DNA from: Chiloscyllium plagiosum
Lineage: Eukaryota
Length of the DNA stretch: 55,183 nucleotides
Reading direction: 5' to 3'
Assembly (NCBI RefSeq): GCF_004010195.1
Contig: NC_057755.1
Coordinates: 8,073,466 to 8,128,648, forward strand
Shown: positions 8,685-45,418 of the stretch, in pieces
How positions within the stretch are numbered: position 1 is the stretch's first letter
Layout of the letters: each line of letters starts with the position of its first letter
Made by a program: the position numbers and the translations under genes
Notes under the pieces: generated by a model
Databases searched by the model: none
Told to the model about the DNA's origin: nothing
The model's input: only the letters and a program-made list of their open reading frames with translations

Positions 8685-9556
8685 TTACTTGATCAGTTGT
8701 TGCACTGCATTCCTCAACTTCTCTCTGAACCTGGATACCGTTAATGCATAAAAAAACGTATTCGTGCTGCAGCTGAAATCCTTGAGCATATCTCCAACAT
8801 ATGGCAGAATATTTGCCTTCCCAAAATACTCTGCTGTTCCGTTAATGCCTTGCGATAAGAAGTTTATACCATACACTAACCAAAGAAGAATAAAGCTGAC
8901 GGATATGGTGAAGAGGGAAATCACCGACTTCCTTCGGCTCTCTATCTCTGCATCTTTCCGTTTTTCTTCATTGCCAAAACCCTTCAGTGCCTTGCGGAGT
9001 CGATTGGCCTCTAAAACGTGCCTTACCGTCAGAGTGTTAATCAAAAGAATCAACACAAAAGGTATGAAAGGGGTTAAAATGCTGTCAAACCACTTAAATG
9101 CCAGCCACCTGATATCTGTATAATAGCTTGACTTTATTCGACAGTACCGTGGAATGTTTTTAATTATCTTCAAAGGTTTGAACACAAAATAAAAAGGAAC
9201 ACATTTTGAACAGAGCAGTATGCCAGTTATCGAAAGAGCCACAACCAAAGCTTTTTCTGTCCAATATTTTCTCTTCAGTTTCTGACAGCAAAGCACCACA
9301 AACCGATCAAAAGAGAAGAGTAGAGTGAACCAAACGGAACAGTCTGATGCTGCACGAACCAGAGTAAAGATAGTACTGCAGACCGGGATGATGTCCAGGA
9401 GAGATGGTTGGAAGTAATAGATATTAAATCGTCTTAATACAATGTTCGTGACAATGAACAGTAGATCCGACGTTGCCATAACCAAAAGGAGGCGCGTTGT
9501 ACACTTAGAGAGTCCGCATTTTCCTCGTGCGAGAATGAAAAACATCAGGAAATTAA
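8685..9556 (-). CDS. GPR139/GPR142-like class A GPCR gene A, exon 2 (872 nt; protein 312 aa with exon 1)
   Basis: 7TM pattern with GKCGLSKCTTR, MATSDLL, PVCS, SVWFTLLFSFDRF, PFIPF and CSTNTFFY. Pyrimidine tract and CTTACAG acceptor (AG at 9558-9557). TAA at 8687-8685. The N-terminus given in the ORF track (9620-9557) is intronic. Confidence 0.92.
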
Positions 9557-10269
9557 CTGTAAGAGACAGAAGGTAAAAGGGGAATAGGAAATTACAGAAA
9601 AAAAAACACATTCTCTGCATCTACACAGTGAACAATAAAAGTACTTAGCATCCGAATGCGTCAGTTGGGAGGGTTCAGAGGTCAAATCATAAAAGGATAT
9701 TTGCAAACATAAGTCATGTCAAAGCTGTGCACTCAAGGGTTTTAGTCAGTCAGTGCAGAAAAATCAAAGGAGCATAATTTTTAAAGTGAAAGACAGAGTG
9801 CTTGGGGCCTGAAATGCACTGCTTGGGATGGTAGCTGAGGCAACACATGTCACAACCTTTTAGGACTACTTGGATGAAGACTCGAAGTTTCATAACATGC
9901 CAGGCTATGATCCTGGTTATGGAAGCTGTGGTGAGTGTAGCTTCAGTTTAGCTTTGACATCACAGCTTGATGAATCGAATGACCTCTTCTGCAAGGGAGG
10001 CTTCTATGATTCTGGGAACTGAGAGGCTTGTTCGGTTTTTAATATTATAATCAGAAATTAAATAGCTGTTGATCCTGAAAACGTAGAACGGAATCATACG
10101 TGTTTTGAGAAACTCAACAGGTATTACAACATCAGTGAAGAGAGAAACGGAGTTAATGTTTCATGTCTGGAATCACTCTTCACAGAATATATTTTTCTAA
10201 GTAAGGGTGGCTGGACTCAAAATGTTATTTCTCTTTTCTCCACATACAAGAACATACCCTTGCGACCAA

Positions 10270-10800
10270 AGGAAATTGAACCAGGTCCTTATGCTTATTT
10301 CGATTACCAACACCTAGACAAAGTCCTGAAAGTTAATTCAAGAGAATTAAATATCCTGATTGCCTCTAAATGAGTTGGGAACTGGCGCCTCCAGGCCCCT
10401 AAACTGGGAAGTGAAGTCCAGACATAACACCACCGTCTGGATGAAAGGGTTAGACCTTATGAACCATGTAATCTTTTAGCAATCAGCCTCACTTAGGTCC
10501 CATAGTAAATGTTCCTTTCCGTTAGGGTTAATACGTCTGTATCAACACTTTCCTTACTTTGTGCACCTGAATCACCTAAGTTTGCATTCTCCTCAGTTCA
10601 CGGGAAAATAAGCCTAGCCCTCTCTAATCTTCCCCAAAGCTGCTGTAGTTTCCAAGTGCTGGCAACTTGCTTGTAAATCTCATCTGTGTTCAACCCAGTT
10701 GAATTCTGTCCTTCCTGTTATGTGGTGACCCGAACTGTGCACAACATTACAGCTTTAGTCTACCCACTGTCTTATATGGTTGCAGTGCTACAGTCCTTGC
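10270..10800 (-). mobile_element. Decayed CR1-like 3' fragment in the intron of gene A
   Basis: Reverse complement gives AQFGSPHNRKDRIQLG-like CR1 tail motifs. Confidence 0.55.
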
Positions 10801-10977
10801 GTGGCAAGATGGATTTTGTTTTGTGTTGAATGAGTTTCAAGGTAAGGGCCAATGCTTTTGGTGAAGAATTTGATTCCCGGTATGGGCATATGGGCAAAGT
10901 CTGGGCCACATAATAGGTCTGGTGCGCTGCCATAGGGTTCAACAGATCCATTCTGGGCTCAATCGGTTACTCAGAAG

Positions 10978-11262
10978 TTAGATTATCTAGATTTCTTACA
11001 GTGTGGAAACAGGCCCTTCGGCCCAACAAGTCCACACCGACCCGCCGAAGCGTACTCACCCAGACCCATTCCCCTACACCTAACACTACGGGCAATTTAG
11101 CGTGGCCAATTCACCTAACCTGCCTATTTTTGGACTGTGGGAGGAAACCGGAGCACACGGGGAGAATGTGCAAACTCCACACAGTCAGTCGCCTGAGGTG
11201 GGAATTGAACCTGGGTCTCTGGCGCTGTGAGGCAGCAGTGCTAACCACTGTGCCACTTTGCC
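10978..11262 (-). mobile_element. tRNA-derived SINE (HE1/V-SINE type)
   Basis: Reverse complement of the 11873-12185 type, with an internal deletion in the core. Confidence 0.9.
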
Positions 11263-11872
11263 ATTTAGACTCAGTTTAATACCGTTTCTTCTGTCTGAAA
11301 AGAGGTGGTGTAATTCCAGAACAAGCTAGATGTCGGACCTGAATACAGCTTGATGGATCACAACCGTACTTGCTTTGGTTTTGAAGAACATAATATCTTG
11401 CAAACCATAATGCTGCAAACTTTACTTCAACAACGAAACAGCAGTTCATTATTAATCTAATGATGATAAATTCAAACATTTTAAATGGTCTACATATAAC
11501 ATTGATTCAGAGGCATTACACACACAGTTAATATAGGACCTCATTAATCTAAAGTCACTGTATAAATTAAGAAAAAGATAGAAAACAACTTTTATAGAAT
11601 ATACAGAATATTATAAACCCTCCCCCACCCCCATATACTGCTGACAACAGAATCCCTGTGTCTAAGACTTGGTTTATTCAGTTGTGATTTCCACTTTTTA
11701 AATGTTACTTCAGTAGCTTCTTCGGGGAATAAAGACACAGCTGAATGTTAATGTACTTAGCTTTAAGTAATCTCTATAGGGCTTTTTTAATCCCAATACT
11801 TCTGGTCCCGAATGAGCATGAACATTTCTTTTTAAGGTGCTCTAATTGGCTAAATCTCCGAGTTCCTTCTCA

Positions 11873-12185
11873 GCGGCGGCACGGTGGCACAGCAGTTAGC
11901 ACTGCTGCCTCACAGCGCCAGAGACCTGGGTTCAATTCCCGCCTCAGGCGACTGACTGTGTGTAGTTTGCACGCTCTCCCCGTGTCTGCGTGGGTTTCCT
12001 CCGGGTGCTCCGGTTTCCTCCCACAGTCACAAAGATGTGCAGGTTAGGTGAATTGACCATGCTAAATTGCCCCTAGTGTTAGGTAAGGGGTAAATGTAGG
12101 GGTATGGGTGGGTTGCGCTTCGGCGGGGCGGTGTGGACTTGTTGGGCCGAAGGGCCTGTTTCCACACTGTAAGTAATCTAATCTA
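11873..12185 (+). mobile_element. Full-length tRNA-derived SINE (HE1/V-SINE type)
   Basis: A box TGGCACAGCAGTTAG, B box GGTTCAATTCC, V-domain core, LINE-like tail ending in AATCT repeats. Confidence 0.92.
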
Positions 12186-12799
12186 AAAAAAAGAGCAAAG
12201 ATCTATGCATCCACCCAGTTCCACGGTGTGTCAAGGGCTAAAAGAAATAATTCATGCTTAAAATTGAAGTTAAAGGTTTCTCAGTTAAGGGTATTTTCCT
12301 TTAGTTCAGATTCGAGAATGCGAGCTTGCAAACAAAGGGAAAGAAGAAAATTTATTTGTGGACAAATCCATTCATCCTAGATCTAGTTTATAAAAACGTT
12401 CTTTTCAAAAAAATCTGAGGCTGCAGAAATAACTTCCAAGTTAACTACTACCTTCAGATAAGCAGCGAAATCTAACAATAGTTCCCTAAAAAAAACAAAG
12501 TGAAGACTTTACTAAACTCCATGAAACTTTCTGCAGTCTCTGATTGAAATGGCAAATTCAGAATGTTGCAGGATGAAATGAATTACCGCGTGGAAAGTTC
12601 AACTGCCCAGGTAAATTCTGCAGAGTCTGGAGTGATGGGGATTCCACCGGCGTTTCTGCATTCTGAGACTAGGTCACCGATCATTCACCCATTTAAGAGA
12701 GTGGCCACAACATGCCCATGTCTCATTGTCAATTGCTGAACGAAAGTGCAGGGAATTCTCAGACAGAATTACACGAACTCAATGATGGAAAACACTCAC

Positions 12800-12866
12800 C
12801 AGGAATTGTTGCAATCACAAGGACCGTGTAAAATATTTTCCGCGCATTCTGAATTGGAAGATGCAT
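12800..12866 (-). CDS. GPCR gene A, exon 1 (67 nt, MHLPIQNARKIFYTVLVIATIP + G)
   Basis: ATG at 12866, donor G|GTGAGT. The phase-1 join to exon 2 gives IP-V-NFLM, completing TM1. A homologous 67-nt exon is present in gene C. Confidence 0.88.
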
Positions 12867-12958
12867 TTCTGGCAAGGACGTTTTGTTCAGTCAATCTCTC
12901 TCCGTATTAATGAACAAGGTAATATTTCCCAAATTCCTTCTTTTGTACTTGCTGGCAT

Positions 12959-12969
12959 TACCTGGGGAA
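12959..12969 (-). promoter_or_regulatory. O/E (Olf1/EBF)-like site upstream of gene A
   Basis: TTCCCCAGGTA ~95-100 nt upstream of the ATG, aligned with GTCCCCAGGAG in gene C. Confidence 0.35.
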
Positions 12970-13246
12970 CTGTCACATCACGTGCCAAAAGATCTTTCAA
13001 GAATTTGAACAAACAGCTGATTACAGTGAGTTAAATCCCAGTTGTGACGGAGTATTTTTTCGAAATCTATTGGATTATGTGAGTTTCATTTGGTTAAAAA
13101 TAAACATTGATACAAAACACCGTCCGTCCCATGATGAGATCTAATTTTTTTTCAGTGTTGTATTTTTGTTGACGAAATCCTAGTTATGAAGTATCTTTCT
13201 GAAACCTTTTCCTCGACAAAGGCATGTGACTTCTCTGTTTAACAGT

Positions 13247-14093
13247 GTTAAAAATCACACAACATCAGGTTTATTTGGAAGTACTATCTTTCAGAGGCGT
13301 TTCTCCTCCATCAGGTCACTAATAGGGCAGGATCATAAGACGCAAAATATGTAACAAAAATCACAGTGTCATGTAACTGAAACGATATATTGAACAAACT
13401 TAGATTTCTGTTAAGTCTTTCATCTTTTCTATTCATTTGCATATGAATCCCAGAACTTCTTTTAAGTCAGGTGCTCGAGATAACGTAGGACAGTAAAAAA
13501 AGTAACATCTCAGATCAGACAATGTATTAAAAGTATGAGATTAGAGTCTGTCTGCATCTCAATCTTTAGTCAGACTGGCTCTTTATACGGTTAGCATTTT
13601 ATAAAAGGTAATATGGATTGACTGCCTGCATATTGTACGCTTTTTGAGCAAAAATAGAACATATCTGCAATTACAATTCTGCAAATGCAAGTTCACCTCA
13701 CAGACATTTGTGAGTGTGTGTCTATGTGTGTGTGCACGCGTGCATGTGTGGGAGAGAAGGAGAGAGTGAGTATATGCATGTGAGTATAGGTGTGCATGGG
13801 AGTGTGTACTTGCGTGTGTCCATGCTTGGTAGCGTGTCTGCGTCAGCGTATTGGAGTGTAAGCCTGTGAGAGGGTGTGTGCATAGGTGTGAGTGCTTTGT
13901 TCAATATTCTGTTTGAATTACATGGCACGAAGACCTTTGGCTTTAAATTCTGTGTCTTATTATCCTGCCACAGGAGTTACCGATAAACGAGCTCTGAAAG
14001 CTAATACTTCTAAATATCCCTGCTGGAAGGCAACCTTGTGTTGTGTGATGTTTAACTTTGTCCACACCAGTCCTACACGGGCACCTCCACATC
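13247..14093. mobile_element. Non-autonomous Penelope-like insertion with inverted termini and a 12-bp TSD
   Basis: Perfect direct repeat CTGTTTAACAGT at 13235-13246 and 14094-14105. Termini GTTAAAAATCACACAAC and GTTGTGTGATGTTTAAC. Same family as 29794-30372 and 35889-36713. Confidence 0.8.
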
Positions 14094-14559
14094 CTGTTTA
14101 ACAGTAACTGTTCCATGAAAGGATGTTAGGTGGTTTATGAGTCCACACATTGTCGGTTTTAACGAACCCAACATAACAATAGAATTCCTCACCGGTTAAA
14201 TAATATACTGAAATACATCCTCAAAGATTTCATAAGATCCAATTAATACAGTTCCTCCCACCAGGGTGAAGCTGCAATGTACCAGAGCTGACCCTGAAAT
14301 ACACATGAACTGTACAGCAGGAGAGGGCGTGAAGCATTCTGTTACCTATCGTGTACTTTACATGTACAGAGACCGATAGTGAGGCACAGACAATATCTAC
14401 TGAAGGAGACTGGAGTGAATAATTCTTGATTACCTGCAGTATATTGGACATTTATACAGCCTTCACACTTCGGTGCCATTTTGAAGCATAAGATGAATAA
14501 AAATAAATTATGTAAGTAGTGAAAGGAGTCACAATATAGCTCCAGAACATCAGAGAAGA

Positions 14560-18351: not shown

Positions 18352-19210
18352 TTACCTCACAAATTGCTGTTCCACATTTCTGAACATTACTCTGAACTTT
18401 GATAGAGTCACTACATAAAACAATGTGCTCGTGTTGCAGTTAAAATCCTGTAGCAGAAATGCACCCCCTGTAAATATATTGTCCATACAAACATTTGATC
18501 AGTGAATAGCTTGCTTCAAGATGTTTGAACCATTCACAAACCACAGACATATAAAGCTGACTGTTATGGTGAGGAGTGAAATCACCGACTTAATTCGGTT
18601 CTCCAACGCTACATCTTGGGGACTAAGTCCCAACCGCTCACCCCTCAGGGTTTTGCGAACCTGTCTGACAATGCAAATGTACCAAACTGACAGTGTTCGA
18701 CAACAGAATTACCGCGAATGGAATGAAAAGGGTTAACATGTTCTTAAATCAGTTAAACCCGAGACAACTTGGGTCTGTTTAAAAAAAGCATGATTTTATT
18801 CCACAGTACCAGGGAAAATTGTCAATGATCTTATTAGGTTTAAACCGAAAATAATTGGTTTTCGAACAGAGCAGAATTCCTGGAACAACTAAAGCCACGG
18901 TCAATGTTTTCTCTGTCCAATATTTTCTCTTCAGTTTCAATCAGCAAATGGCCACAAAACGATCAAAAGAGAAAAGGGCATTGAATCAACCGGGAAAGTC
19001 TGCAGCTACATGAAACAGTCAAAGAGAGCACTGCAGACATGAGTGAGGTCCAGGAAACACTTTACAAAGTAATACATATTGAGTTGCCTGAGTATGTCTT
19101 CGTCAAAATGAACAGTAGATCTGCTGTTACCATGGCGATTAGGCAACACGCAGTAAAATTAGAAACACCGCATTTTCCACATGTGATAATCAGAATCACC
19201 AGTACATTAA
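18352..19210 (-). pseudogene. GPR139-like GPCR pseudogene B (exon 2 homologue)
   Basis: GKCGVS, AMVTADLLF, FSFDRFVAIC, KYWTEK, CNTSTLFYVVTLSKFR and QQFVR*. In-frame TGA at 18988-18986, 18943-18941 and 18751-18749, frameshifts, and acceptor AG changed to GG at 19212-19211. Exon 1 not found. Confidence 0.9.
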
Positions 19211-23220: not shown

Positions 23221-25974
23221 TTTTTTAAAATTATTGCAAATACATAAAGTTTTCTTTTTCAGAAATAAAGTATGTACAATTAATAAAGCTGTTCCAATGT
23301 GCATTCTATTTACTTATACTGATCAAATTAACTCTTGAAGTTCACCATTCTGTTTACCTCTTCGCATGTAGCTGAAGCGTTAACAGGTCCGAATTACTGA
23401 ATGCCTCCCTGCTATGCTTTGGCAGAAGGACCTTACACAGTGAGATAATTTTAGATACTGAGAACATCAAGGGTTGAGAGCGAAAGCACGAATTAGGTTT
23501 TGCGATACAAAATCACACACCATTATACTGAGCAGCGGTCAGGTTCAATGGGTTAAATTATCTCCTTCCGTCCCTTTGCTCCCAAATTCCAATCACACAA
23601 TGTTCAGCATTAAGTGAGCTGTCAGCATCCATTGAATGTTAGTTCTTCCCATTGTTGGGTTCCACTATCTGTCAGAAACTCTTCAGTCTCGTTGATCACC
23701 TCATTATGGTGAAAGAGGTGAAAGCCTGAGTGATCAAGAGAGATGGATATTCCACGGGTGGCGTAACCCAATTGGCTTAAGAAGGTGTCCATTATTAAGC
23801 AGAGCCGAACTAAACAGCAATATGTATATGGAATCTGAAATAGCTCTAGTGCATTTTAATATTTATTTTAAAGTCAAACAGTTCAAATTTACAGGCAAGC
23901 ACGATAAACTCCAATACACAAGATTATTTATACAAGGATGCTAACAGCTCTAAGACACAACAATGTAACAAGAGGTGTTATGAAAGGGTGGATGGTCGTT
24001 TGAAGGCAGAGGGTGCTTTTCTGAGCCTTCAGATTTTGAGAACACATGTGCCCTGGGCTGGCTATCTCTATCAAAGTGTGTACAAAGGATTGAAAGCATG
24101 TAGGGTTATTAACATTGGCTTGGTTGTATACTGATGTTAAATCAACCATACCTGAATTTTACTAATTAATTTAAAATATATTTGCTTGCATGACAAAATT
24201 CGACGATTCAGATGATAGAAGCTTTGGGGACATATAATGGAGTGCATCTCGAAAATTGCCCAGAGCTATCTTCCACAAACCTAACTGCACCTCAGAAAAA
24301 AAAGGTTTCAAACAAATCTCTCAGAAAGCTCCACGTATTAAAAGTACCAAGGCATTTCATCGAAAGGTGCTTACATTAAAAAAACAGTGAGGAGAAGAAA
24401 CAGGAGAAGACGGAGGATTAGGGAAGAGCAGTGAAAGACTGAAAAAATCAGAAGGAAAGGCAAGCTGTGTGGACTTTAAGAGATTAAGTATTAATTTACC
24501 ATGATTATAAATTGTGTTATTGCAACAGCATATTAGTAGATTGTGGTCAGTTAAGAAACAGTTGGGAGTGCGGTTTGATGATAGTTTTGTTAGAGTTTTC
24601 ATTGGAAGGTTTAACTGAATAAATAGGTAAAAAGGATTCTGGATTGGTGCTGGAAAAGCACAGCAGTTCAGGCAGCATTCGAGGAACAGGAAAATCGACA
24701 TCTCGGGCAAAAGCCATTCATCAGGACATTGTTACCTGTACTTGATCATGGATATCCCGGATCTTCTTTCATTCATACATGTGACAGTTTACCAGTTGAG
24801 GAGAGCTTCTCTGGGTCTATGGGTTTTAATTATCAGAGGAGTTTGATATCCCCATCGTGACAGACTTGGGGGCTCTTAATCCGAGATTTAAACTGGTTAG
24901 GAGCTCCATTCTGAGATCTGGAGAGTTCGTGTAGGAGATCTAATCGGCTCTGAGCAATATTGCACAGATTCAAACAGACTCAGCGATTAATGTCTTCAAG
25001 CTTTAAATGAAACTTAGGTGAGAAAATCTGGTTAATTTTGGTTTCTTGTGTTTTTTAGATTAACAGTGAGAGACATGGCACTTATAGTCACTGAGTGTTT
25101 TCGAGGAGAGTAAAAGAAATGACTTGAGAGTTTAACCAAATGTGAGCTTGGAAGCGCTGCTGCAATCGGCAGGTAAACAGGAAGTGAGTTTGCCTGTGTA
25201 TGTGAAAAAAAAGATGCCATTTCAGCAATATGTCAACATTTAACTGCCATCATATCGGTTGAAATGGCTAGAATTCAATTCAAATGAAGCAGCTTGAGAT
25301 AGAGGAGAAAGAAAAGGAGAGCGGTTTCTTAAATGAGCAAAAAGGATAGAGAGAGAGAAGAAAGAGAAACATAAATGGGAGAAGGAAGAGAAAAGGAAAA
25401 GGAGTTTGTATTTCTAAAGTTGCAAATTTGTCAGGAAAGTCAATTTAACAGGATGGAGATAAGGATAGAAGCTATTGCTATTGTTATGGACCAGGCCACA
25501 TCCCCCAAATTATTTTAAGAAAGCAGCTGGGACACTAACATTGTTACTTGTTTGAAGAGGTGTACAGTGGATAGACCAAGAGTGATGCAGTTGGCCTAAT
25601 CACTTGGTTTTAAATTAAAAAAAATGCAAGTTACCGGGTGGAATACAAACAAATGGGAACAACATGTACAATAAGTAATCTTTTCTGAAAACAAAACACA
25701 TGATACTAACTGAATGATACAGTTCCAAATACTTCAAATTGCCGTAAGCATCCCTATGCACAAAATAGGAGAGAAAAAAACCCGGCAGAATTCAGAGAGA
25801 GGGAGGATCAGCATAGAATTGCTTCTTGGTTCCAGTCGCTTCACAACGATCAGCAGCCCTTAAAACAATACAAACGAGACTACAGAAAAGTTGAGCTGGG
25901 TGAACTGGCCATTCCCCTTTCATTGGACGAGTTCTTTTAATGTTAAAAGATTCCTAAGTAGAATTGCCACAGAT

Positions 25975-29793: not shown

Positions 29794-30323
29794 TGATTTG
29801 GAGATGCCGGTGTTGGACTGGGGTGTACGAAGTTAAAAATCACACAACACTAGGTTATAGTCCACTAGGTTTAATTGGAAGCACAACTAGCTTTAGGAGC
29901 GTCGCTTCTTCATCAGCTGATAGTTGACAGCTCAATCCTAACACACAGAACTTACAGAAAAATTTACAGTGTGATTTAACTAAAATTATGCATTGAAATT
30001 TTGACTGTCTTTTAAGACTTTCATCTGTTTGAATGCCAGGAATGTTTCACTTCTTTCATGTGTAAATCACAAAACATTTTTTAAAAAGCTGCATTCTCAG
30101 GTTAGGTGTTAACAATGGCGATAGCAAAACTATATGTTGAAGGTGTTAGCCCCCTGTGCTCTCTGTCTATGCCATGATGTTTAGATTGATTCTAATCTAA
30201 AAAGTAAGATAACGGAGTTTTACATTAATTCATGCAGTTTTTGAGCTCACAGTTCTCCATGAATGCATGCAGTTTTTAAGCAAAGTGCAATGTAACCCTG
30301 CAAGTACAAATTCACCCCACAAA

Positions 30324-30355
<32 letters not shown>

Positions 30356-30372
30356 AGGCGTTTCTGTGTGTG
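29794..30372 (-). mobile_element. Penelope-like element 3' UTR fragment with a degenerate hammerhead motif and a 9-bp TSD
   Basis: TAATATTTC at 29785-29793 and 30373-30381. High similarity to 35889-36430. (TG)n at the right end. Confidence 0.8.
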
Positions 30373-32641
30373 TAATATTTCCATTGCCTAAATTTCCACT
30401 GGCATTTCAATCAAAATAGGGAGCAGTGTGAATCAGCTAAATCGTTAGGAAGGACAAATAGTATTCCTGGAGCTGAGAGTTTGTCTTGCACTCCTACCAC
30501 GACTTCTCCACTCTTCACAAACACTCTAACCTCACTCTACGTAATTGAGCGCTTCATATCTCACCTTGAATTCCCATTACTCGTACCTTACCTGGCAATA
30601 ATCCTTCAGAAGTACATCTCTCCTCATCTTTGAACATATAAGAATGAAAGCTTCCTGTACCTATTCATATTGTACCCTCTTTACCTACTACTCCTTGTGT
30701 ATGTGAGTAAACATTACTTTCGTATCCATGGTTTAGGAAAATCGGGCAAGACCTCCTCACTCATCCTCTGACTAGGTTATACAGTTTGTTGCAGCTTTCT
30801 AAACTCCACTGGACTATTTTTTTACCACTCGAACAAAATTCACTGGCTTATCCTGTTTTCCTCCATCTGACTTCCCAGTGTTTTTCCTAACCTACCAACA
30901 TTGCGTTTTCATGTGCCCTAATTTATCGTAATGTAAACACTGGAAATTTTTAACTTCTCTTTCCCCTTCAAGCGTTTTCTTTTCACCCTGTAGTTAGTTA
31001 TACTTAAGATCTTTGCCAAGATCTATATTTCATTTTCCATGTCAGAAATCAGTTTTACCCAATTTCTGTCCCTCATAGATTAAAATTGATTTTGGAAGCC
31101 AAACTTTGATTAATAGATCAACTCTGAATCATCAGCAATTTCAGCTGATAATCTTGCTGATTTATCTTCCACATTTTCTCCCTACATCACGAACCAAATT
31201 TTTGAACTCCTCCAAAATAATCACCTCTCGAAGAACGAAACGTTTTCCTTTGTTTCAAATGTTCCTATCCACCTATAAAAATCACTTTGTTAGATCCTTT
31301 CTAAAACTACGTTGGTTTATCCAGGGTCGCTTCTTATCTTCCTGAAAGTTTGTCTGAATGCTTCTGGCATAACCTCATTTGCAGATAAAATGGCTTTCTC
31401 CATCTCTTGAATGTCCCCAGAAATCTCTTTCGACAATGAATATCACAGTAGCTCTATATAAACGTTTTGTTTGGATCAACAAAACCCACGTGGTCACTGA
31501 TTAATTCATTTGTTTAGTCACCTTTTCAGACGACATGAAAGAGGCTACCACATATTTCTCATCAAATGTCGGAAATGCTTAATAGATTTAAACAGTTTCT
31601 CATCAGTCCTTTGTCCCCAAAGGTTTGCTCATCCACTCTCTCTTCTTGACTAAACTGATCTTCAGTTTTCAACTCTCTCTTTTAAGTTGACTTTCCTGTT
31701 GAAGTGCCAAATTCTGAAGTTTGAACTCTCCCTCTTTCTTCCTTTCCTGTGTCTCTTCTGTCTTTCTTTCCCTCTCTCCTTTTGTTGTGGTCATACAATT
31801 CTGTCCATTTCTTTTTGCTACCTTCCCTTGGCTTTCTAATCATCATTCAATGAATTTCATTACTTTTATACTTTCCTCGTCCTTTGTCTCTAACACAAGC
31901 TGATTCATTTTCAATTGAACTTTAGCCATTTCCGAAGATTCTAATAGAGTTTGCAGCTAATGTAAATGCGGAGTTACTGCTGTAATCATCTCTACTTTCG
32001 TCACGACAGGAGGCAGCCACATCTTCATCTTGTCTGTTAAATCCAGTAGATTTGATGTAATCACCTTTTGCAAAATCCCAAAGTCACTTCTTCCACTCCC
32101 AGAAAACTCTTCGTGACTGAAGAAGCTATTGCTATCCCAAGCACTATTTAAACCAACTGAAATAAACACCCAAAACAAAAGAGACTAATACCACAACTCG
32201 CAGTCTTTGTATCCAGCAACCCTAATCCCAAACTTAGAATTATAGTACAAATCATGCAAATAGTCCCCATTTCGTTATGAACCAGGCCAGACCCCGTCAG
32301 AACACTTCAAGGCAGTAGCCTGGACCTTAATTTTACTAATTATTTAAGCAGATATAGAGTACCTATTCTGAGTAATGCAGTTAGTCCAATCACTTAGATT
32401 TAATAGTAACAGAATTTACTTGCAGGATTACTGAATGAGACAGAAACAAAAGAGAATATACTAAATAATAACTTAATTTGTTAAAAACTGAACAGAATAT
32501 CCAGATTTAATGATGATGTTCCAAATCTTTGCAACAATCCCCATAAATGACCCTGTGCCAAAAAAGGAAACGTTCAATACAGGTTCTTACAGGAGAAGTG
32601 TCAGAGAGAGAGAGAGGATAAACATGGACCTGCTTCTTTGA

Positions 32642-32851
32642 GGAGAAAGTGAGGTCTGCAGATGCTGGAGATCAGAGCTGAAAATGTGTTGCTGGAAAAG
32701 TGCAGCAGGTCAGGCAGCATCCAGGGAACAGGACAATCGACGTTTCGGGCATAAGCCCTTCTTCAGGAAGGGCTTATGCCCGAAACGTCGATTCTCCTGT
32801 TCCCTGGATGCTGCCTGACCTGCTGCGCTTTTCCAGCAACACATTTTCAGC
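32642..32851. mobile_element. Short Penelope-derived fold-back insertion (85-bp inverted arms) with a 13-bp TSD
   Basis: Arms 32677-32761 and 32767-32851 with 2 mismatches, loop TTCAG. Flanks CCTGCTTCTTTGA and CCTGTTTCTTTGA. Confidence 0.85.
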
Positions 32852-33149
32852 CCTGTTTCTTTGAATCCAGCAGATTCACAACGACTAGCAGCTCTGAACT
32901 CAAACCATAAAAGACGTGAGACAAGCTGAGCTGGGAGAACTGACCACTCAATTTTCATTGGGAAAAAGTTTATTCCTCCTTCAGATCAACTGCAAACGTT
33001 TAGGAACATGTGTCTTTACGACCTCCTAAAAAAAAAAACGAAATTTCAACCTCGCCTTATTTTAAAAAGCATTATCATTACAATATGTACAACTACGTTA
33101 AAGAATGACCGCATTTTTATGGAAAAGACGTTGAAGCATTTTTCCTTTC

Positions 33150-34627: not shown

Positions 34628-34860
34628 CGAGTTGAAAAATGTGGTACTGGAAAAACACAATAGGCCAGGCAGCATCCGAGGACCAGGAGAATCGACGTTT
34701 CTGGCATAAGCCCTTCTTCAGGAATAAGGCTGGTGTGCCAAGCAGGCTGAGATAAAAGGTAGGGGGGAGGGTATTTGGGGGAGGAGCGCTGGAAATACGA
34801 TAGGTGGAAGGAGGTGGGGGTGAGGGTGATAGGCCAGAGAGGGGGTGGGGGCGGAAAGGC
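34628..34860 (-). mobile_element. Penelope-like 3' end with a hammerhead-like motif
   Basis: Reverse complement TTCCTGAAGAAGGGCTTATGCCAGAAACGTCGATT. Same family as 2531-3006. Confidence 0.75.
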
Positions 34861-35888
34861 CATGACTTAATGATCGTTAGTTTTTGATGGAAAGATCATT
34901 TGCTACATTTGGCAGATTACGTGATGCAAAACTGATTTTGAAGTTTTGCAAAGACTGAAATCGTGAAGACAGAGGTGACGTTCTTGGGACATAACATCAG
35001 ATATGGAAGGACGACCTCAAGGACCGTGAAATTGAAGGCAATCGAGGAACGTCCAAGATCATCCTCGAACAATGAGGTGCTTCGATTTTTCGGACTGAGA
35101 AGACTCTTCTGGCAGTTTGTCCAAAACTTCAACAGTGTGGTGGCATCACTGATGGATTCACGAAAGAACACAAAATTCCGTTCGGCAGCTCAATGTCAGG
35201 ACCCATTAGAAGTTTTAAATGCTGCATTGTCTATCGTTCCAGTTTTAGACACATCAAACTACTTAAAACCCTTTAGAGTCCTATATACGCCAGTGATACA
35301 GGGGTTGATGCAAGAAGGTGAAGACGGAATTGAAAGGCCAACTGGTAATTAATCAAAGAAATTAAATATTCATCAGGGAAATTATTCCAACGTTGAAACA
35401 GATGTACTGGGTTTAGTATTGGTTTTACAGCATTTCACCATATATATTAAGAATAATCCCTCACAGATGTTTGGAAATACCGACCATCAAGCCCTCACTT
35501 CTTTGGAAAGATTTAAGAATAAAAATTTGAGAGTATTTCGATGGAATCTGCTGTTATAGGTTTTTAATTTCCAAAATCGTACATGTGGAGGCTCGAACTA
35601 ATATTATTGTAGAGGCGTTATTATCGGCTAAAAAGAAAATCAATAACTTTGAACTAGTTCAATGCAAGGTGTAACTAAAGATGCTATGTAATTCGTAATA
35701 ATGGTGTTAAGATTTTTTTGAGGAACAGAAAGATGAAGCCATCTTTACATTATGATTGTTCATTTATTTCTTTAAAACAGAGATGTTATGAATTAATAAG
35801 CAAGAATAGTATCTTTAAAAAAGAGTTTTCTGAAGGGAGAGATTTTGAAATCATGTGTCGGCGAGCTATCAGTGTTAGAGTCATTACT

Positions 35889-36713
35889 AAGTTAAAAATC
35901 ACACAACACCACGTTATAGACCAACAGGTTTAATTGGAAACACACTAGCTTTCGGAGCGATGCTCCTTCATCAGGTGCTTGTGGAGGGCTCGATCATAAC
36001 ACAGACTTTATAGCAAAAATTTGCAGTGTGATTTAACTGAAATCATACATTGAAAAATTGATTGTCTGTTAAGACTTTCATCTGTTAGAATACAGTGATA
36101 GTTTCAATTCTTTCATGTGTAAATCACAAAACACTTTTAAAAAAAATTGCATTCTCGGGTTAGCTGTTAACAGTGGTGATAGCTAGACAATATGTTGAAG
36201 GTGTTAGCCCCCTGTGTTCTCTGTCTATGACCTGATGTTTAGATTGATTCTAATCTAAAAAGTGAGATAACAGAGTTTTACATAAATTCATGCAGTTTAT
36301 GAGCTCAGAGTTCTACATGAATGTATGCAGTTTTTGAGCAAAGTGCTATGTAACTCTGGAAGTACAAATTCACCCCACAAAATATATGTGTGCATGTGGG
36401 TCTTTGTGTGTGTGTGTGTGTATGTGTGTGTCTGTCTGGGGTGGTAGTGCAATGGTGATCACCTGTAATGTGACATGAACCCAAGGTCCCGGTTGAGGCC
36501 CTCCCTATGGGTACCAAACTTAGCTATAAGCCTCTGCTCAGCCACTTTCCTCTGCTGCCTGTGCCGAAGTCCATCCTGGAAGATGGTCACCCGAATGTCC
36601 GAGGCTGAATGACCTGGACCACTGAAGTGTTCCCCAAATGGGAGGGAACCCTCCTACCCTCCTGTCTGTTGATTGTTGAGCGGTGCCCATTCATCCGTTG
36701 TCGTAGTCTTTCA
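35889..36713 (-). mobile_element. Penelope-like element 3' portion (GIY-YIG C-terminus plus UTR) with a 12-bp TSD, inserted in an LTR
   Basis: LRQRMNGHRSTINRQEG..EHFSGPGHSASDIRVTIFQ..AEQRLIAKFGTHREGLNRDLGFMSHYR*. Flanks AGAGTCATTACT and AGAGTCAGTACT. Confidence 0.85.
35942..35978 (-). ncRNA. Minimal type I hammerhead ribozyme motif, apparently intact
   Basis: GCAC-CTGATGA-A-GGAGC-ATC-GCTCC-GAAA-GCTA-GTGT: helix I GCAC/GUGU, 5-bp helix II, palindromic AGCU helix III, CUA triplet. Confidence 0.75.
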
Positions 36714-39029: not shown

Positions 39030-39600
39030 AATGTGTGTGTGCGTGAGCGTATTTTTTTCTGTATGCGCGCGCTCGTGCGTGTCTGTGAGAGAAAGTGAGA
39101 GAACAGAGAGGGATGAATAGAAGCCCGGAATGAGATCGACAAAGAGACAAAGGGAGAATGTCGCAGAGATAAAGATAGACAGCGGAAGTGAGCAGGAGCG
39201 GTAGAGAGAGGGAGAGAGAAGAGAGAGGGAGAGATAGATAAATCAATAAATAGAGATAAATAAGACAGATACTGAAGGAGAGGGATACAGTGTGCGAGAG
39301 ATATATAACAAGTTACTAATCAAGACAGGGACAGAGAAAGATAAACTAAGATAGAGCAAGAGAGAGAGAGAGATAAAAGACACAGTGAGAGAGTGAGGGA
39401 GATGGAGATAGTGAAAGAGACAAAGACACAGAGAGATAAAAAGGCAGACAGAGATACAGAGCCAGGCAAACAGAGATAGACGTACAGTGAGAAAGAGAGG
39501 GAGAGAGAATGACAGTGACAAACTAAGAGAGATACAACGAGAGGGAAAGGGAGACAGGGACAGAGAAAGAGAATGATTGACAGAGACAAATACAAACAAG
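39030..39600. repeat. GA-rich low-complexity tract downstream of GPCR gene C
   Basis: Cryptic (GA)n/(GACA)n, resuming at ~40280-40360 after a Penelope fragment. Confidence 0.75.
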
Positions 39601-40275
39601 CAGACAACACACTTCCAGAAACAATAGCCACTCTCCCCTATTCAAAGACATTTCGGAAATGACCGCCAGACTACTCAGACCCCTTGGCATCATGGAAGCC
39701 TACAATACCACGAACACACTAAAACTGCATTTAATAAACTTGAAAGACTCAATACAGACAGCAAGCAAAATTAATGTAATTTACAAAACACATTGAAAAC
39801 AATACATTGGACAAACAGTCAGAAAGCTAGTCACAGCATACACGAATGCCAACTTACAACAAAAAAATATCAACTCTCACTAGTATCCTTACAGACGGAT
39901 GAGGAATGACACCAATCAATCGGGACAACATATCCATCTTAGGCCAAGCAAAACAGAGACGTGCACGAATATTTCTAGAAGCATGGCATTCTAACTGGAA
40001 CTCTATCAACATTCGCATTGACTTTGATCGCATTTATCACCTCCTGATATAAAGAAAAGGAAATGGCATCACCATAGAAAATAATGTCATCACAGGAAAT
40101 GAGATTATCAACCAAATGAAAGCCAAACACACAAATAGAACGCGGGAGACACGATCAGTGTTTCATTTGGAGGCTCACGTAAGATGTTATCCAGAATAGT
40201 GATGAAACGTGTGAAAACGAACCTTGCAGCTCAGAGAGCAAACCTGTATCAAGAACCTCAATCTTCTCAAATCTG
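39600..40275 (+). mobile_element. Decayed Penelope-like element (GIY-YIG domain and 3' UTR)
   Basis: KINVIYK..YIGQTVRKL..ILGQAKQRRARIFLEAWHSNWNSIN. Confidence 0.75.
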
Positions 40276-40438
40276 GCTAGCAGAGACAAAGACAATGAGA
40301 GGGAGAAATAAAAAGCGCAGACAGAACCGGACAAAGAGATTGAGAGAGGGAGAGAAGGCAACATCCTTGCAATGGTAATAGATAGAAGGTGGGCTCAAGG
40401 ATAGACACAATCAGCCTTTCCCTTATTGTAATGAAGCG

Positions 40439-40444
40439 TTTATT
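40439..40444 (-). promoter_or_regulatory. Putative polyadenylation signal of GPCR gene C
   Basis: AATAAA on minus ~680 nt after the stop, aligned with the other two copies. Confidence 0.6.
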
Positions 40445-41125
40445 GTGAGATGAACTGAGAGTGTCTGATATGCATCCTGGTGCAGGAGGGATTGCTTCTG
40501 ACCCCACCACTCCTCTCCTGCAGAGGATAAAGCAGATACTCCTCGTGCTAGTCTTTAACACTCATCCACATGGTAGTCTGTGAAGACTCGATATTCCAGC
40601 CGAACACATCACTCACAGGCAGTCTATCATTTATAATCACTCCTGCGATGTCTATCCATCCTAAATTTCCCTGAATAGTCACCTCTTGACCCTAACTTGC
40701 CGCCTTTGTCAAGTCCATCAACCTTTATGAACGGGGAAGTGGAGCAAGTTTGAAAACTCTGGGGAATGGAGTGGTAATCAAAGGTAGATGTGCATGTCGA
40801 TCTGACGTTGCAGTGGAATGTGCTGTGATCTTCTGAAAAGATGGGTGAACCAGGCTCGAGGAGCTGAATAGCCCACTGATCTTCATTGCTTGTCTGTCCA
40901 CATGTGTGTCAACACGACAATCAATCAGAGATAGCAACGTCTTCCTGAACGTGTTGAATGTTGACCCAATCTGCTAAGCAGCCTCTCCATCCCCCGCTGA
41001 GCGTTCTAGTCAAATCCATGTGATTGTGCTGTCCGAAGCTTGGCCGTATATATTCAATTCCTGCACTGGGAAAACTGCAACTGCAACCACTCTCAGCTGC
41101 TTTTGATAATCCTGAAGTGAGCAAT

Positions 41126-41991
41126 TTACTTGACTAGTTGTTGCACTGCATTCCTGAACTTCGCTCTGAACTTAGGCAGAGTCACTGCGTAAAATAATGT
41201 GTTCGTGCTGCAGCTAATATCCTTGAGCAAATCTCCGACTTCTACAATAACAAGTCCCTGCCCAAGACGTGTTCCATTAACCTTATAGTAGAAAAAGTTT
41301 GTACTGTACACTAACCACAATAATATAAAGCTGATGGATACTGTAAAGAGGGAAATCACCGAATTCCTTCGGTTGTCCAACTCTGTGTCTTTATGACTCT
41401 GTCCAGTTCTTGGACTCCTCAATCTCTTGCTGGCTTGACTGGCCACAAAAATGTGCCTGACCGTTATAGTGTTCATCAACAGAATTAACACGAACGGAAT
41501 GAAAGGTGTTAAAATATTATCTAACCACTGAAATCCCAGCCATCTGAGATCATAAAAGTAGCTTGACTTTGTTTGGCAGTACATTGGAACATTGTCAATT
41601 ATCGTTGAATGGTGAAACCGAAAATAGAAGGGAATGTTTTTTGCACAGAACAGAATGACAATTACAGTGAGAGCCACAGCCAAGGCTTTCTCTGTCCAAT
41701 ATTTTTTCTTCAGTTTCTGGCAGCAAATGACCACAAATCGATCAAACGAGAAAAGGACAGTGAACCAGACAGAACAGTCTGTGGCTGCATGAGCGACGAC
41801 AAAAACAGCACTACACACAGGGGTGATGTCCAGGAAACATTTTGGAAGGTGATATCGATTGAATTCCCACAGTATGAGATGAATTAGAATGAACAGTAGA
41901 TCCGCTGTTGCCATGGCCATTAGGCATCGAGTTGTGCAACTGGAGAGGCCACACTTTCCACTTGCAAGAACCAAAACCACTATTGAATTAA
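41126..41991 (-). CDS. GPR139/GPR142-like class A GPCR gene C, exon 2 (866 nt; protein 310 aa with exon 1)
   Basis: Open frame with GKCGLSSCTTR, MATADLL, SVWFTVLFSFDRF, PFIPF and CSTNTLFY. CTTACAG acceptor (AG at 41993-41992). TAA at 41128-41126. Confidence 0.92.
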
Positions 41992-42692
41992 CTGTAAGAG
42001 ATAGGAATTAAAAACAAAAAACAGAAATTATTGATAAAATATTTTTTGCGTCTGCCCAGAAGGCAGCAAATGATCTTAGTATCTAAATGGGTTAGTTAGG
42101 ACGTGCCTGATGTCAATTATAGAAATAACATCTCCGAACATGACTCATTTCCAAGCTGCACATTCCTAGGTTTAAGTAAGTGAGGATAGGGTGTAGCTCT
42201 AAGATGAAAGTTGAGAAGTTTAGAGGCTATTGGGGGAAAAAGGTTTTCACTAAATAGTAACGGATTCGTGAAATGCATTGATTGGAGAAGTAGGAAATCT
42301 AAAAATGTTTAGGACGACTGCCAGTTAAGTCACTGTTCAGCACAGCTTCACCTGTAGAAGGATCACAGGGTCAAAAAGTTAACTCTGCCTTCTCCCCGCA
42401 AATGCTACCACGCCAGTGAGTTTTCTCTGGCAATTTTTGTTTATTTTTGATATGTTTCATTAAGGCTGCAAATCTTAGTGTTAATCTGCTTTGACTCTTT
42501 AACTCTGACCGTCTGGGGTTCAAAAATTCGTAAAAGGAGTTGTCCACTCAGGCCTTTAGGCCTGCTCTCCCATTTGACATTGTGGTGGTTGGTTCTCAAC
42601 ATCAGTGATTGTTTTCTCTCCATTGACCTTGGTGCCGTCAAAATCAGCAAACTTATCTATTGCATACCCCAGAAACCATACTCAGAGTATAG

Positions 42693-42694
42693 GG

Positions 42695-42786
<92 letters not shown>
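42693..42786. repeat. (GA)n microsatellite in the intron of gene C
   Basis: Near-perfect GA dinucleotide run. Confidence 0.95.
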
Positions 42787-43094
42787 TGGCATATTGGAGA
42801 CCGGAAACGTTATCTCTTTTTGAATCACAGTACCATCAAGGTCTGAAACACTTTGAGGACAATGAAGCTGGAGTCACACACTAAGACTCGTTTTTTGCTG
42901 ACTTTCTGTTTGGTGTCAACTAAATAACACACTGACAGTACTCTTACTTTAGCTGACTTGCCACGAGATCATTTTCTCATCAGCAATATCGAACAATATT
43001 TTCTGGAAATGAGCAGTCTAAATGCACAGTGTGAAGTAATGGCTGAATTTGCAAACACAAATAGGACGGTACCCAATGCCGTATATTCATATTG

Positions 43095-44070
43095 AATCTA
43101 ACAGCATGGAAAGAGACCCTTGTGTGCGTCTCATCTATGTCAACCCGATATCATAAATTGATCTAGTCCTATTTGACAGCATTTGGTCCATATCCTATTT
43201 ATGTACCAAACCAGATGCTGTTTCAATGTTGGCATTGTACCAGCCTCCAGCACTTACTCTGGTAGCTTATCCCATAAATGCACCATCTTCTGCATGACCC
43301 TCAGGCTACTTATAAATCTTTACCATCGCAACGTAAACCTATGTGCTTGAGTTTTCGACTCCCTACATTGTGAAAAAAAGACATTGCTTATTCCCTCTAT
43401 CCACGCCCCTCATGAATTTATAAATGTCTATCAGGTTACCTCTCAGCCTTTAATGCACCAGGCAAAATAGCGCCAGCCTACTCAGCTTCTCTCGAAAGCT
43501 CAAATCCTTCAATTCTGGTGGTAGCCTTCTCAATCTTTTGTGATCAGATACAAGCTTAAAATATCTTTGCAATATCAGGGAGATGAAAATAGAATGCAAC
43601 ATTTTAAAAGTGAGCTCACTAATGTCTTGTGCAGCTTCAACATGGCGGCCCAACTCCTGCACTCAGTGCACTGAGAATGAAGGTGAGCGTGCCAAACACC
43701 TTCTTTATTATTCTGTCTGCCTGAAGCCTGCAGCTTATCCGTATTTTCTCGCAAACATTCTCCAGCGACTCAACATTAACTGTATAAGCCCAGTCCTGTT
43801 TTACCTGATCAAAGTACAACAGTTCATATATATCTGAATTAAACTCCATCTGCTACTTCTCAGTCCAATTCCAATCTGATAAAGGTGCCACTATACTCTG
43901 AAGTAAACTTCTGCACTGTCCGCTGCACCACTTATTTTGATGTCATCTGCAAACTTCCAAGCCATACCTGCTATGTAAACATGAAAAAATTTCTAAAAAT
44001 GATGAAAAGCAGTGGAACCAGCATTCACGGCAGGCTGCTGGTCACAAGCATCCAGATGGAACACAACAGT
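43095..44070 (-). mobile_element. CR1-type LINE fragment in the intron of gene C
   Basis: KFADDIK, MEFNSD and LKDLSFREKLSRLALF motifs. Confidence 0.8.
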
Positions 44071-44154
44071 TGAACTAGTAGGTTGCATTCATTCCAACAT
44101 CCCCAAAGCTGTGAAATATCTCAGCACGTTTTAAGAATGCCTATATTTAGGGAA

Positions 44155-44206
44155 GTGTGTGTGTGTGTGTGTGTGTGGGGAGGGGGGGGGGGGGGGGGGG
44201 GCGGGG
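44155..44206. repeat. (TG)n followed by a G20 homopolymer
   Basis: Directly visible. G run at 44182-44201. Confidence 0.9.
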
Positions 44207-45351
44207 AGCAGTTTGCAATATATTGAAATATGGCAAGCAATACATGCGTTTGGAAATTAGGGCAGACTCTCGGACTACTCTCAGAATCAGACAGAAATGA
44301 CTGGTGGTGGTGCAATCTGAATTTCTCATGCCTCAGGAAACGACAGATACTGAGAAGGAGAATCCTTGAAAGGTAAGCTCAACCAGCGTAGGATTTGGAC
44401 ACACGCTGGTGATTATTAATTTTCATTGCAAGGTAGCAATCCAGCCAGTTGTGCAAACCGACCCCGAAACACCAAGATCCTCATTAAGGTGAAAATGATA
44501 TGTACATTGCCAAGGGCACAGTCCATCAATTTGTTCAGAAGGTTGACTTTCACTAAGACTACTTTAAAAACCAAGATACAAATGGGATCAATGTTTTTGC
44601 GAGATCAGGGGAACAGGTTCACAAATTTATAAACTAATGTTAACAGGGCAACAAAACCAAAACATTGCTAAATTAGGATAATTAGGGTCCATTTCCAGAA
44701 GGAAATCGAAATGCAAAAAGTTAATATTCCTCTATGTCGAAGCCTTCGTGTGTGCATGTTTTGTTTACCGGATGTAGTTCTGGATATCATATCACAACAA
44801 CATGATTTGATCCACTGGAAAACGTATGACTATTCGATGGAGAATGATAACTGAACTGAGAAACATTTTTTTCATTATTAAGGGCAAAAAACTAATAATT
44901 AAACTCTCCATGTTAATATAATGGCTAACTTCAGAGACACAAAGAGGTACACTGGTTAATTACTCAGAAAACTGAAACCGGTACAAAACCGACCGAAATG
45001 TCATTATCCTCACTACATTAAAAATCCATAGATTGTATTACACTATTCCAAAGTGACTACTTCAATGAATTCTATTGAAACGTTCTGAGTCACCGATAAA
45101 AGGGAAGATTTCCAGAAGGTTCCAGGAGGAGATTAATTGTACAGCAGAAATTCAATTCACCAAATAATTCTTGCAGAGTCTACAATGTTGGGGATTCCGA
45201 AGGGAAACTGGAATCTGAGTCTAAATCACCGATCATCTGCTCCTCTGTCGGGGCGGTCAGAACATGCCTATGTATCATTGTTAGTGGGAGAGAGAAAACG
45301 TTGTGAATTCTCAGACATATTCACGCGCATTCAGAGGTACAAGGCACTTAC

Positions 45352-45418
45352 CAGGAATTGTTAGAATAGGAAGGATCAGGTAACATATTTTCCTTGCATG
45401 ATAAATTAGGTGATGCAT
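45352..45418 (-). CDS. GPCR gene C, exon 1 (67 nt, MHHLIYHARKICYLILPILTIP + G)
   Basis: ATG at 45418, donor G|GTAAGT. The phase-1 join gives IP-V-NSIV. Homologous to 12866-12800. Confidence 0.88.

What the first reader, a model, noticed from the sequence alone, without database searches (positions are those of the whole stretch)
8685..45418. Tandem array of divergent GPR139-like orphan receptors: candidate uncharacterised (chemosensory?) receptor repertoire
Seen: three co-oriented paralogues in ~37 kb (two intact, one dead), with ~310-aa 7TM proteins, almost no N- or C-terminal tail, and roughly 60% identity by eye. Established: mammalian GPR139 and GPR142 are single-copy receptors activated by aromatic L-amino acids, and tandem birth-and-death arrays of compact GPCRs are typical of chemosensory and immune receptor families. 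Inference: a lineage-expanded receptor family distinct from OR, TAAR, V1R and V2R that may detect amino acids or peptides. This is the best candidate for a novel system here; its function is not shown by the sequence.
Basis: partly seen in the sequence, partly recalled or inferred. Interest (0 to 1): 0.78.

Follow-up and report, generated by a model that had tools for sequence, protein, structure and literature searches.

The report
Hidden giant shark receptor repertoire
The two intact and one dead receptor genes here belong to a family with about 1,900 motif-matching copies in this shark genome, which is not GPR139 itself and varies most on its outward, ligand-facing side, so it likely forms an undescribed set of chemical sensors, possibly for smell, in animals thought to have only a few dozen smell receptors.

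Summary
Two intact two-exon class A GPCR genes (312 and 310 aa, 60% identical) flank a pseudogene, all on the minus strand.

They are a small piece of a large family. One helix-3 motif matches 1,917 places in the genome (control: 1), and 34 of 54 assessable sampled copies have an intact main exon. That suggests roughly 700-1,200 intact copies. Relatives are on record in sharks, rays and a chimaera.

The 'GPR139' label is a best-hit name. The true GPR139 is a separate gene here, and an AU test rejects grouping the family with GPR139/142 (p = 0.0003). Three of GPR139's four Trp/Phe-site residues are highly variable in the family.

Codon models show purifying selection inside the protein and positive selection on the extracellular loops. 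Unalignable promoters are enriched for O/E-like and homeodomain-like sites, as in mouse odorant receptor genes.

Best reading: a chemosensory, probably olfactory, repertoire (0.6). An immune sensor family is the main rival (0.2). Tissue and ligand are untested. Nine literature searches found no description. This scan has already reported the family on other DNA many times.

The parts
12800..12866 (-). Gene A exon 1 (ATG plus first half of TM1, phase-1 donor)
   Evidence: exon and donor conserved in 24 subfamily copies, 22 with in-frame ATG
8685..9556 (-). Gene A exon 2 (rest of TM1 to helix 8, stop); intact, 312 aa spliced
   Evidence: Pfam 7tm_1; AF2 model pLDDT 84.9 with 7 TM helices and ECL2 hairpin
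12940..12968 (-). Gene A predicted core promoter: O/E-like site (8 of 9 to the published consensus, -102 from ATG) and TATA-like box (-81)
   Evidence: function inferred
18352..19210 (-). Copy B, pseudogene exon 2: five stops, three frame changes, mutated acceptor, no exon 1 found
45352..45418 (-). Gene C exon 1
41126..41991 (-). Gene C exon 2; intact, 310 aa spliced
   Evidence: Pfam 7tm_1
45510..45519 (-). Gene C O/E-like site (7 of 9, -101 from ATG)
   Evidence: function inferred

Best explanation
Genes A and C are intact members of a chondrichthyan class A GPCR family with about 1,900 motif-matching copies in this genome, which likely works as a chemosensory repertoire: each receptor would be switched on in a small subset of sensory (probably olfactory) neurons and would bind its own set of outside molecules, likely peptide-sized ones. 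Shown: copy number, birth-and-death structure, the two-exon design, the separate ancestry from GPR139/142, purifying selection on helices and the inner face, positive selection on the outer loops, and enrichment of O/E-like and homeodomain-like promoter sites. Inferred: that the promoter sites are used by Ebf and Lhx2-type factors in olfactory neurons; that the ligands are peptides or similar (disulfide-tied ECL2 hairpin, selected sites on the rim of the pocket); and that the conserved DRF motif, cysteine-rich ICL2, basic ICL3 and helix 8 couple all members to a common G protein. Within the 0.6, I put about 0.45 on the olfactory epithelium and 0.15 on skin, gill or taste-type cells.
For: Size: 1,917 exact matches of a TM3 motif (reversed control 1) and 1,328 of an independent TM7 motif (control 0). 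34 of 54 assessable sampled loci have an intact exon 2. Pocket: columns 3.32, 3.33, 6.51 and 7.38 are invariant in 11-12 of 12 GPR139 and 8 of 8 GPR142 rows but take 7 or more residue types among 87 family rows; D2.50 (87/87), R3.50 (87/87), W6.48 (85/87) and N7.49 (86/87) are kept. Selection in 13 close paralogues of a dispersed subfamily: M2a vs M1a LRT 203-206, omega about 5.4-5.9. 14 of the 17 selected sites lie in extracellular loops (50 of 297 codons) and the other 3 at the outer ends of TM6/TM7. The signal survives removing indel-flanking codons (LRT 152) and using per-segment trees (LRT 10, 89, 44). In the window's own subfamily (18 sequences): LRT 33; omega 1.01 in outer loops vs 0.50 in TM and inner loops. 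Promoters: in 16 mutually unalignable upstream regions, the O/E consensus printed in PMC3247239 is matched at 8 or more of 9 positions in 6 of 16, against a shuffle mean of 0.65 (max 4 in 300) and 7 of 143 upstream windows. A homeodomain-type hexamer (recalled) occurs in 10 of 16 against 4.7 expected. PMC3247239 reports O/E, homeodomain and TATA enrichment in mouse OR promoters (title and passages).
Against: No expression or ligand data were obtained. The promoter window was chosen after I had seen the sequences, n is 16, and a strict palindromic EBF match is present in only 3 of 24 promoters of the window's subfamily. The V1R/OR motif CNTCTGG from PMC3247230 is absent from the proximal 200 bp in 17 of 17. 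EBF also drives B-cell genes (reference title), so O/E sites alone do not point to the nose. Strong positive selection is also typical of immune receptors (established knowledge). In catshark, the 50 most specific 'brain and olfactory epithelium' genes held no GPCR, and the authors regard V2R as the main olfactory family (PMC11979771); V2Rs were not in that list either. An exon 1 with ATG was found within 10 kb for only 18 of 30 intact exon-2 copies (2 more had an exon-1-like match without a nearby ATG), so intact-gene numbers may be lower. The codon models are my own implementation on fixed trees, and gene conversion is only partly controlled.
Confidence: 0.6

Rival explanations
1. An immune sensor family: receptors on leukocytes or epithelial sentinel cells that recognise microbial or parasite peptides, diversified in an arms race (like the formyl-peptide receptors, on a larger scale).
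For: Strong positive selection on the extracellular rim. Peptide-receptor-like fold; Foldseek neighbours include chemokine, C3a and formyl-peptide receptors among neuropeptide receptors, none standing out. EBF is also a B-cell factor.
Against: The O/E plus homeodomain plus TATA combination fits olfactory neurons better (PMC3247239). From recalled knowledge, repertoires of about a thousand compact GPCRs in vertebrates are otherwise chemosensory.
Confidence: 0.2
2. Receptors for endogenous or reproductive signals (gamete, uterine, endocrine or gut peptides), where diversification reflects sexual or species-recognition conflict rather than environmental sensing.
For: The ancestry lies among FMRFamide/sex-peptide-type receptors (PMC12208981 passages; atlas neighbours). 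Catshark OR and V2R genes often show testis or other non-olfactory expression.
Against: No known endogenous ligand set needs hundreds of receptors. The promoter signature resembles OR genes.
Confidence: 0.12
3. Largely passive amplification: a small cassette copied around a repeat-rich genome, with most copies functionless or redundant.
For: About 37% of sampled copies are broken (20 of 54). One subfamily is scattered in both orientations along large contigs with 1-3 kb of shared sequence. TM omega of 0.4-0.5 is relaxed.
Against: Omega is significantly below 1 in helices and inner loops and above 1 at outer-loop sites. Subfamilies are shared across sharks and rays, and a chimaera protein is a strong profile match. 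Copies keep their intron, so they are not retrocopies.
Confidence: 0.05
4. One reading: GPR139-like receptors that sense aromatic L-amino acids.
For: Human GPR139 is the best solved-structure match to the family profile (E 3.7e-13). The phase-1 intron in TM1 is shared.
Against: F3.33, H5.43 and N7.38 of the Trp/Phe site (PMC5430874 abstract) are not conserved. The family has a TM3-ECL2 cysteine pair (84 of 87) and a long ECL2 that GPR139/142 lack. AU p = 0.0003.
Confidence: 0.03

Closest known systems
GPR139 and GPR142 (class A; GPR139 activated by L-Trp/L-Phe; PDB 7vug, 9m42)
   Same: Best PDB sequence match; shared phase-1 intron in TM1; W6.48, N7.49 and Y7.53 kept; P7.50 absent in both.
   Different: About 19-21% identity; separate clade (SH-aLRT 98-100; AU p = 0.0003). 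True GPR139 is a separate gene in this genome (L001, 84% to human). Pocket residues are not kept, P6.50 is mostly lost, and the family has a predicted TM3-ECL2 disulfide and hairpin.
Unstudied vertebrate GPR139-related orphans: salamander genes P0229/P0269/P0272 and coelacanth/teleost genes P0230/P0235/P0253, probably the GPR210-type sets of PMC6504862 (accessions not matched)
   Same: The salamander lineage is the family's sister group (99); both keep the TM3 and ECL2 cysteines.
   Different: One lineage per species among the hits seen, nearly invariant between salamanders. The shark genome has its own orthologue of the coelacanth gene (C26, 64%), so that gene is not the one that expanded.
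Vertebrate chemosensory repertoires (OR, TAAR, V1R/ORA, V2R, T2R, FPR)
   Same: Works like them by inference: compact 7TM, tandem birth-and-death arrays, variable pocket, O/E- and homeodomain-like promoter sites.
   Different: Different ancestry (only Pfam 7tm_1 hit; peptide-receptor branch), an intron in TM1, and no demonstrated tissue or ligand.
FMRFamide-like receptor expansions in molluscs (PMC11589774, PMC11886862; search listing only)
   Same: Independent large expansion from the same broad receptor branch (atlas neighbours).
   Different: Invertebrate; not nested with the shark family in my trees.

Membership tests
Class A (rhodopsin-like) GPCR | 7TM fold, 7tm_1 domain, D2.50, D/ERY-type motif, helix 8 | tested here: met
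GPR139 orthologues | Orthology (groups with vertebrate GPR139; high identity) | tested here: not met
   19-20% identity; true orthologue is L001
GPR139/GPR142 clade | Monophyly with GPR139 and GPR142 | tested here: not met
   AU test p = 0.0003 on a quick tree of 28 rows
GPR139/GPR142 clade | Trp/Phe-site residues F3.33, H5.43, W6.48, N7.38 | tested here: not met
   Only W6.48 kept (85 of 87); numbering transferred by motif
GPR139/GPR142 clade | Activation by L-Trp/L-Phe | not testable with these tools
   needs cell assay
GPR210-type orphans (PMC6504862) | Groups with coelacanth/gar/teleost GPR139-related extra subtypes | tested here: inconclusive
   Groups with coelacanth and teleost proteins (98-99), but I could not match them to the paper's Ensembl ids
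OR / TAAR / V1R / V2R / T2R | Family-specific profile match | tested here: not met
   Only 7tm_1 at E <= 0.01 in Pfam; no OR, TAAR or VR row was put in the trees
Olfactory receptor repertoire (functional class) | Large birth-and-death family with a diversified ligand face | tested here: met
Olfactory receptor repertoire (functional class) | O/E and homeodomain sites near the start | tested here: inconclusive
   Enriched (6 of 16 vs 0.65; 10 of 16 vs 4.7), but the window was post hoc, n is small and no start site was mapped
Olfactory receptor repertoire (functional class) | Sparse expression in olfactory sensory neurons | not testable with these tools
   searches gave no test

The most novel reading that the evidence does not exclude
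Sharks and rays have their own major olfactory receptor family: hundreds to a thousand intact GPCR genes, recruited from a peptide-receptor lineage that stayed at one or a few copies in bony vertebrates, expressed OR-like in olfactory neurons and hidden under the automatic name 'probable GPR139'. The shark nose would then not be a V2R-only organ with a few dozen receptors.
Probability: 0.45. Interest if true: 0.93.

Novelty: new variant of a known kind. Interest (0 to 1): 0.8.

Why it matters
The catshark is reported to have only 8 OR-type, 3 ORA, 3 TAAR, 2 TARL and 32 annotated V2R genes (PMC11979771), and the whale shark paper speaks of a relative paucity of GPCRs in cartilaginous fishes (PMC8455134). 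A family of about a thousand diversifying receptors would overturn that. It offers a directly testable answer to how sharks discriminate odours with so few known receptors. It would be a further independent recruitment of a GPCR lineage into a vertebrate sensory repertoire. If it proves immune instead, it would be an unusually large germline GPCR sensor family. Existing shark RNA-seq can decide between the two.

Tried and rejected
Expression. No RNA holder was listed for gene A. Two single-cell runs of the same species label gave 0 reads on window 7950-10950, with about 2% and 6% of each run read and the tissue unknown, so this is no test. The catshark atlas supplement could not be read and may bear on tissue. 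Only 12 of 24 whale shark supplement files were searched, with no hit.

Searches and folds. Single-sequence PDB search found nothing. The first AlphaFold run on 35 close sequences failed (pLDDT 45); the 118-row run was used. Foldseek does not single out GPR139 (rank 24; all E about 1e-8). IQ-TREE codon runs gave no readable omega, so I wrote the models myself. The careful tree did not finish, so both trees are quick trees with SH-aLRT only.

Transposon carriage. I considered it for the dispersed subfamily. Shared sequence is only 1-3 kb around exon 2, and I did not look further for terminal repeats, so this is open.

Origin next to GPR139. GPR139 lies about 0.5 Mb from a family cluster on C21. 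No member lies within the 50 kb I fetched and the tree rejects a sister relation, so I take this as unexplained or chance.

Rows dropped. 4 of 20 loci (my acceptor pattern found no exon start; one search lists them without stops). 3 gap-containing loci of 57, plus one duplicate place. 5 redundant promoters of 21. 1 donor-less and 6 near-duplicate promoters.
Full report
OBSERVATION. tblastn within the window finds three copies on the minus strand. Genes A and C each have a 67-bp first exon ending in a phase-1 GT donor, an intron of 3,243 or 3,360 bp, and a long second exon. The spliced products are 312 and 310 aa and 59.6% identical. Copy B has five stops, three frame changes, a mutated acceptor and no first exon. 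Both intact proteins match only Pfam 7tm_1. An AlphaFold model of A's exon 2 on a 118-row alignment (pLDDT 84.9, pTM 0.83) shows seven helices, a beta-hairpin in ECL2 and helix 8. In 255 kb around the window there are 9 exon-2 copies, all on the minus strand, and one orphan first exon.

SIZE OF THE FAMILY. A protein search of G000 scored 134 of 7,677 candidates. All 134 were 52% identical or more, and 45 of them lay on the window's 12.8-Mb contig C46. A TM3 motif pattern has 1,917 exact matches (reversed control 1), and an independent TM7 pattern has 1,328 (control 0). The TM3 pattern caught 6 of the 9 local copies, so it undercounts. In two codon-variant subsamples, 44 of 65 and 40 of 66 matches lay on contigs numbered below 50. 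The rest lie on small contigs, some of them duplicates: gene A recurs at 100% on C96179. Of 57 sampled loci, 3 had gaps, 34 had an intact exon 2 and 20 were broken. This gives roughly 770 intact exon-2 copies on large contigs and up to about 1,200 overall. The estimate is rough because the samples are not random, and a first exon with ATG was found within 10 kb for only 18 of 30 intact copies. Outside this genome there are 1,051 hits; 119 of the top 120 carry shark or ray names (one is unnamed), and most are called 'probable GPR139'. One chimaera protein matches the family profile at 377 bits.

WHAT IT IS RELATED TO. Human GPR139 is the best PDB sequence match (E 3.7e-13), which explains the label. 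The real GPR139 is a separate gene in G000 (one pattern match, C21; 84% to human) and is only about 20% identical to A and C. In quick trees of 61 and 28 rows the family is one clade (97). Its sister group is a salamander gene lineage (99), followed by coelacanth and teleost orphans; GPR139 plus GPR142 form a separate clade (100). Forcing the family with GPR139/142 is rejected (AU p = 0.0003). PMC6504862 (passage) names extra GPR139/142-related sets GPR210A and B in coelacanth, gar and fishes. These are probably the orphans in my tree, but I could not match accessions. G000 has its own orthologue of the coelacanth gene. Family and GPR139 share the phase-1 intron in TM1, which fits deeper common ancestry.

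THE POCKET. PMC5430874 (abstract) names F3.33, H5.43, W6.48 and N7.38 as the Trp/Phe site. These columns are near-invariant in 12 GPR139 and 8 GPR142 rows. Among 87 family rows only W6.48 is kept (85); 3.33 and 7.38 take seven or more residue types and 5.43 is mostly Asp (60). The family has cysteines at the top of TM3 and in ECL2 (84 of 87 each) that GPR139/142 lack. The signalling side is conserved: D2.50 and R3.50 in 87 of 87, N7.49 in 86, Y7.53 in 85. P6.50 is mostly lost.

SELECTION. I used my own GY94 site models on fixed trees, with regions defined from class A landmarks rather than from variability. For 13 close paralogues of a dispersed subfamily, M2a beats M1a by LRT 203-206, with about 7% of sites at omega 5.4-5.9. 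Of 17 sites with posterior above 0.95, 14 are in extracellular loops (50 of 297 codons) and 3 at the outer ends of TM6/TM7. Region omegas are 1.26 outside, 0.41 in TM and 0.35 inside. The signal survives removing codons near indels (LRT 152) and using separate trees per third (10, 89, 44). For the window's own subfamily (18 sequences) the signal is weaker: LRT 33, 3 sites, omega 1.01 outside and 0.50 in TM and inside.

PROMOTERS. Earlier notes of this scan suggested OR-like promoter motifs, and I tested this. In 24 promoters of the window's subfamily a TATA-like box and a C-rich half site are conserved, but the whole region is conserved and a strict EBF palindrome match occurs in only 3 of 24. 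In 16 promoters from different subfamilies that do not align with each other, the O/E consensus printed in PMC3247239 (passages) is matched at 8 or more of 9 positions in 6, within 150-50 bp upstream of the ATG. The shuffle mean is 0.65 (max 4 in 300) and upstream windows give 7 of 143. At 7 or more of 9 the count is 11 of 16 vs 5.5. A recalled homeodomain hexamer occurs in 10 of 16 vs 4.7. The window was chosen after inspection, EBF also acts in B cells, and the CNTCTGG motif of PMC3247230 (passages) is not enriched. This is suggestive only.

EXPRESSION. Not testable here (see Tried and rejected).

MECHANISM AND RIVALS. A conserved coupling face, a diversified outer face, about a thousand compact genes in birth-and-death arrays and OR-like promoter elements together fit a combinatorial sensor repertoire best (0.6; about 0.45 olfactory). 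The ECL2 hairpin and rim-located selected sites suggest peptide-sized ligands (inference). An immune sensor family (0.2) and reproductive or endocrine receptors (0.12) remain open. Passive amplification (0.05) and Trp/Phe sensing (0.03) are disfavoured.

LITERATURE. Searches for GPR139 or receptor-family terms with shark, elasmobranch or cartilaginous terms listed no paper describing this expansion. The library lacks most subscription journals, and searches showed only their top 20. PMC11979771 (passages and section 13; supplement unreadable) has no 'gpr139' in its main text. PMC8455134 (passages; 12 of 24 supplement files) speaks of GPCR paucity in cartilaginous fishes. PMC12208981 and PMC12294341 were seen as passages. 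The individual genes are in RefSeq under a misleading name. This scan has reported the family before: 45 findings in at least 14 genomes hold the search words. Those notes are not independent support.

VERDICT. A real and apparently undescribed giant GPCR family of cartilaginous fishes. It is a new variant of a known kind of system (an expanded sensor repertoire from a new lineage). Interest 0.8.

Noticed in passing
G000:C46:8156341-8156418 (27 kb beyond the window's end): Orphan first exon of the family with a decayed start and donor and no exon 2 downstream, the mirror of copy B, which has exon 2 but no exon 1.
   Followed up: partly
L001 = G000:C21:58729941-58732966: The true GPR139 lies about 0.5 Mb from a cluster of 9 family hits at 59.2-60.4 Mb at the end of C21; chance or old linkage is unresolved.
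   Followed up: partly
L002-L021 (C4, C5, C7, C8): A young subfamily (84-94% DNA identity) is scattered in both orientations over tens of Mb of C8 rather than in tight tandem; copies share only 1-3 kb around exon 2. The dispersal mechanism is unknown.
   Followed up: partly
P0229, P0269, P0272: The salamander sister gene is almost unchanged between Pleurodeles, Ambystoma and Lissotriton (end branches 0.02-0.11) and has Asn at 2.50; apparently unstudied.
   Followed up: no
L185 = G000:C26:36599269-36603243: Shark orthologue (64%) of a coelacanth/teleost GPR139-related orphan with Ser or Cys in place of W6.48 in the database rows.
   Followed up: partly
window 32673-32855: A 183-bp near-perfect palindrome (95%) made of two head-to-head copies of a short repeat that also occurs at 2909-2994, 24645-24726, 34636-34724 and 46626-46707.
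   Followed up: no
window 29826-30373 and 35885-36431: Direct repeats of about 550 bp (86%) flanking 5.5 kb that holds decayed retroelement-like frames (by eye; no Pfam hit); possibly an old LTR element.
   Followed up: partly
window 4186-5472, 43101-44016, 52193-55060: Decayed LINE-type repeats; a reverse-transcriptase fragment at 54262-54573 (Pfam RVT_1).
   Followed up: no
P0039, P0208, P0192: Database gene models fuse family exons to a transposase-type domain, an integrin-like or a sodium-channel-like model; probably annotation artefacts.
   Followed up: no
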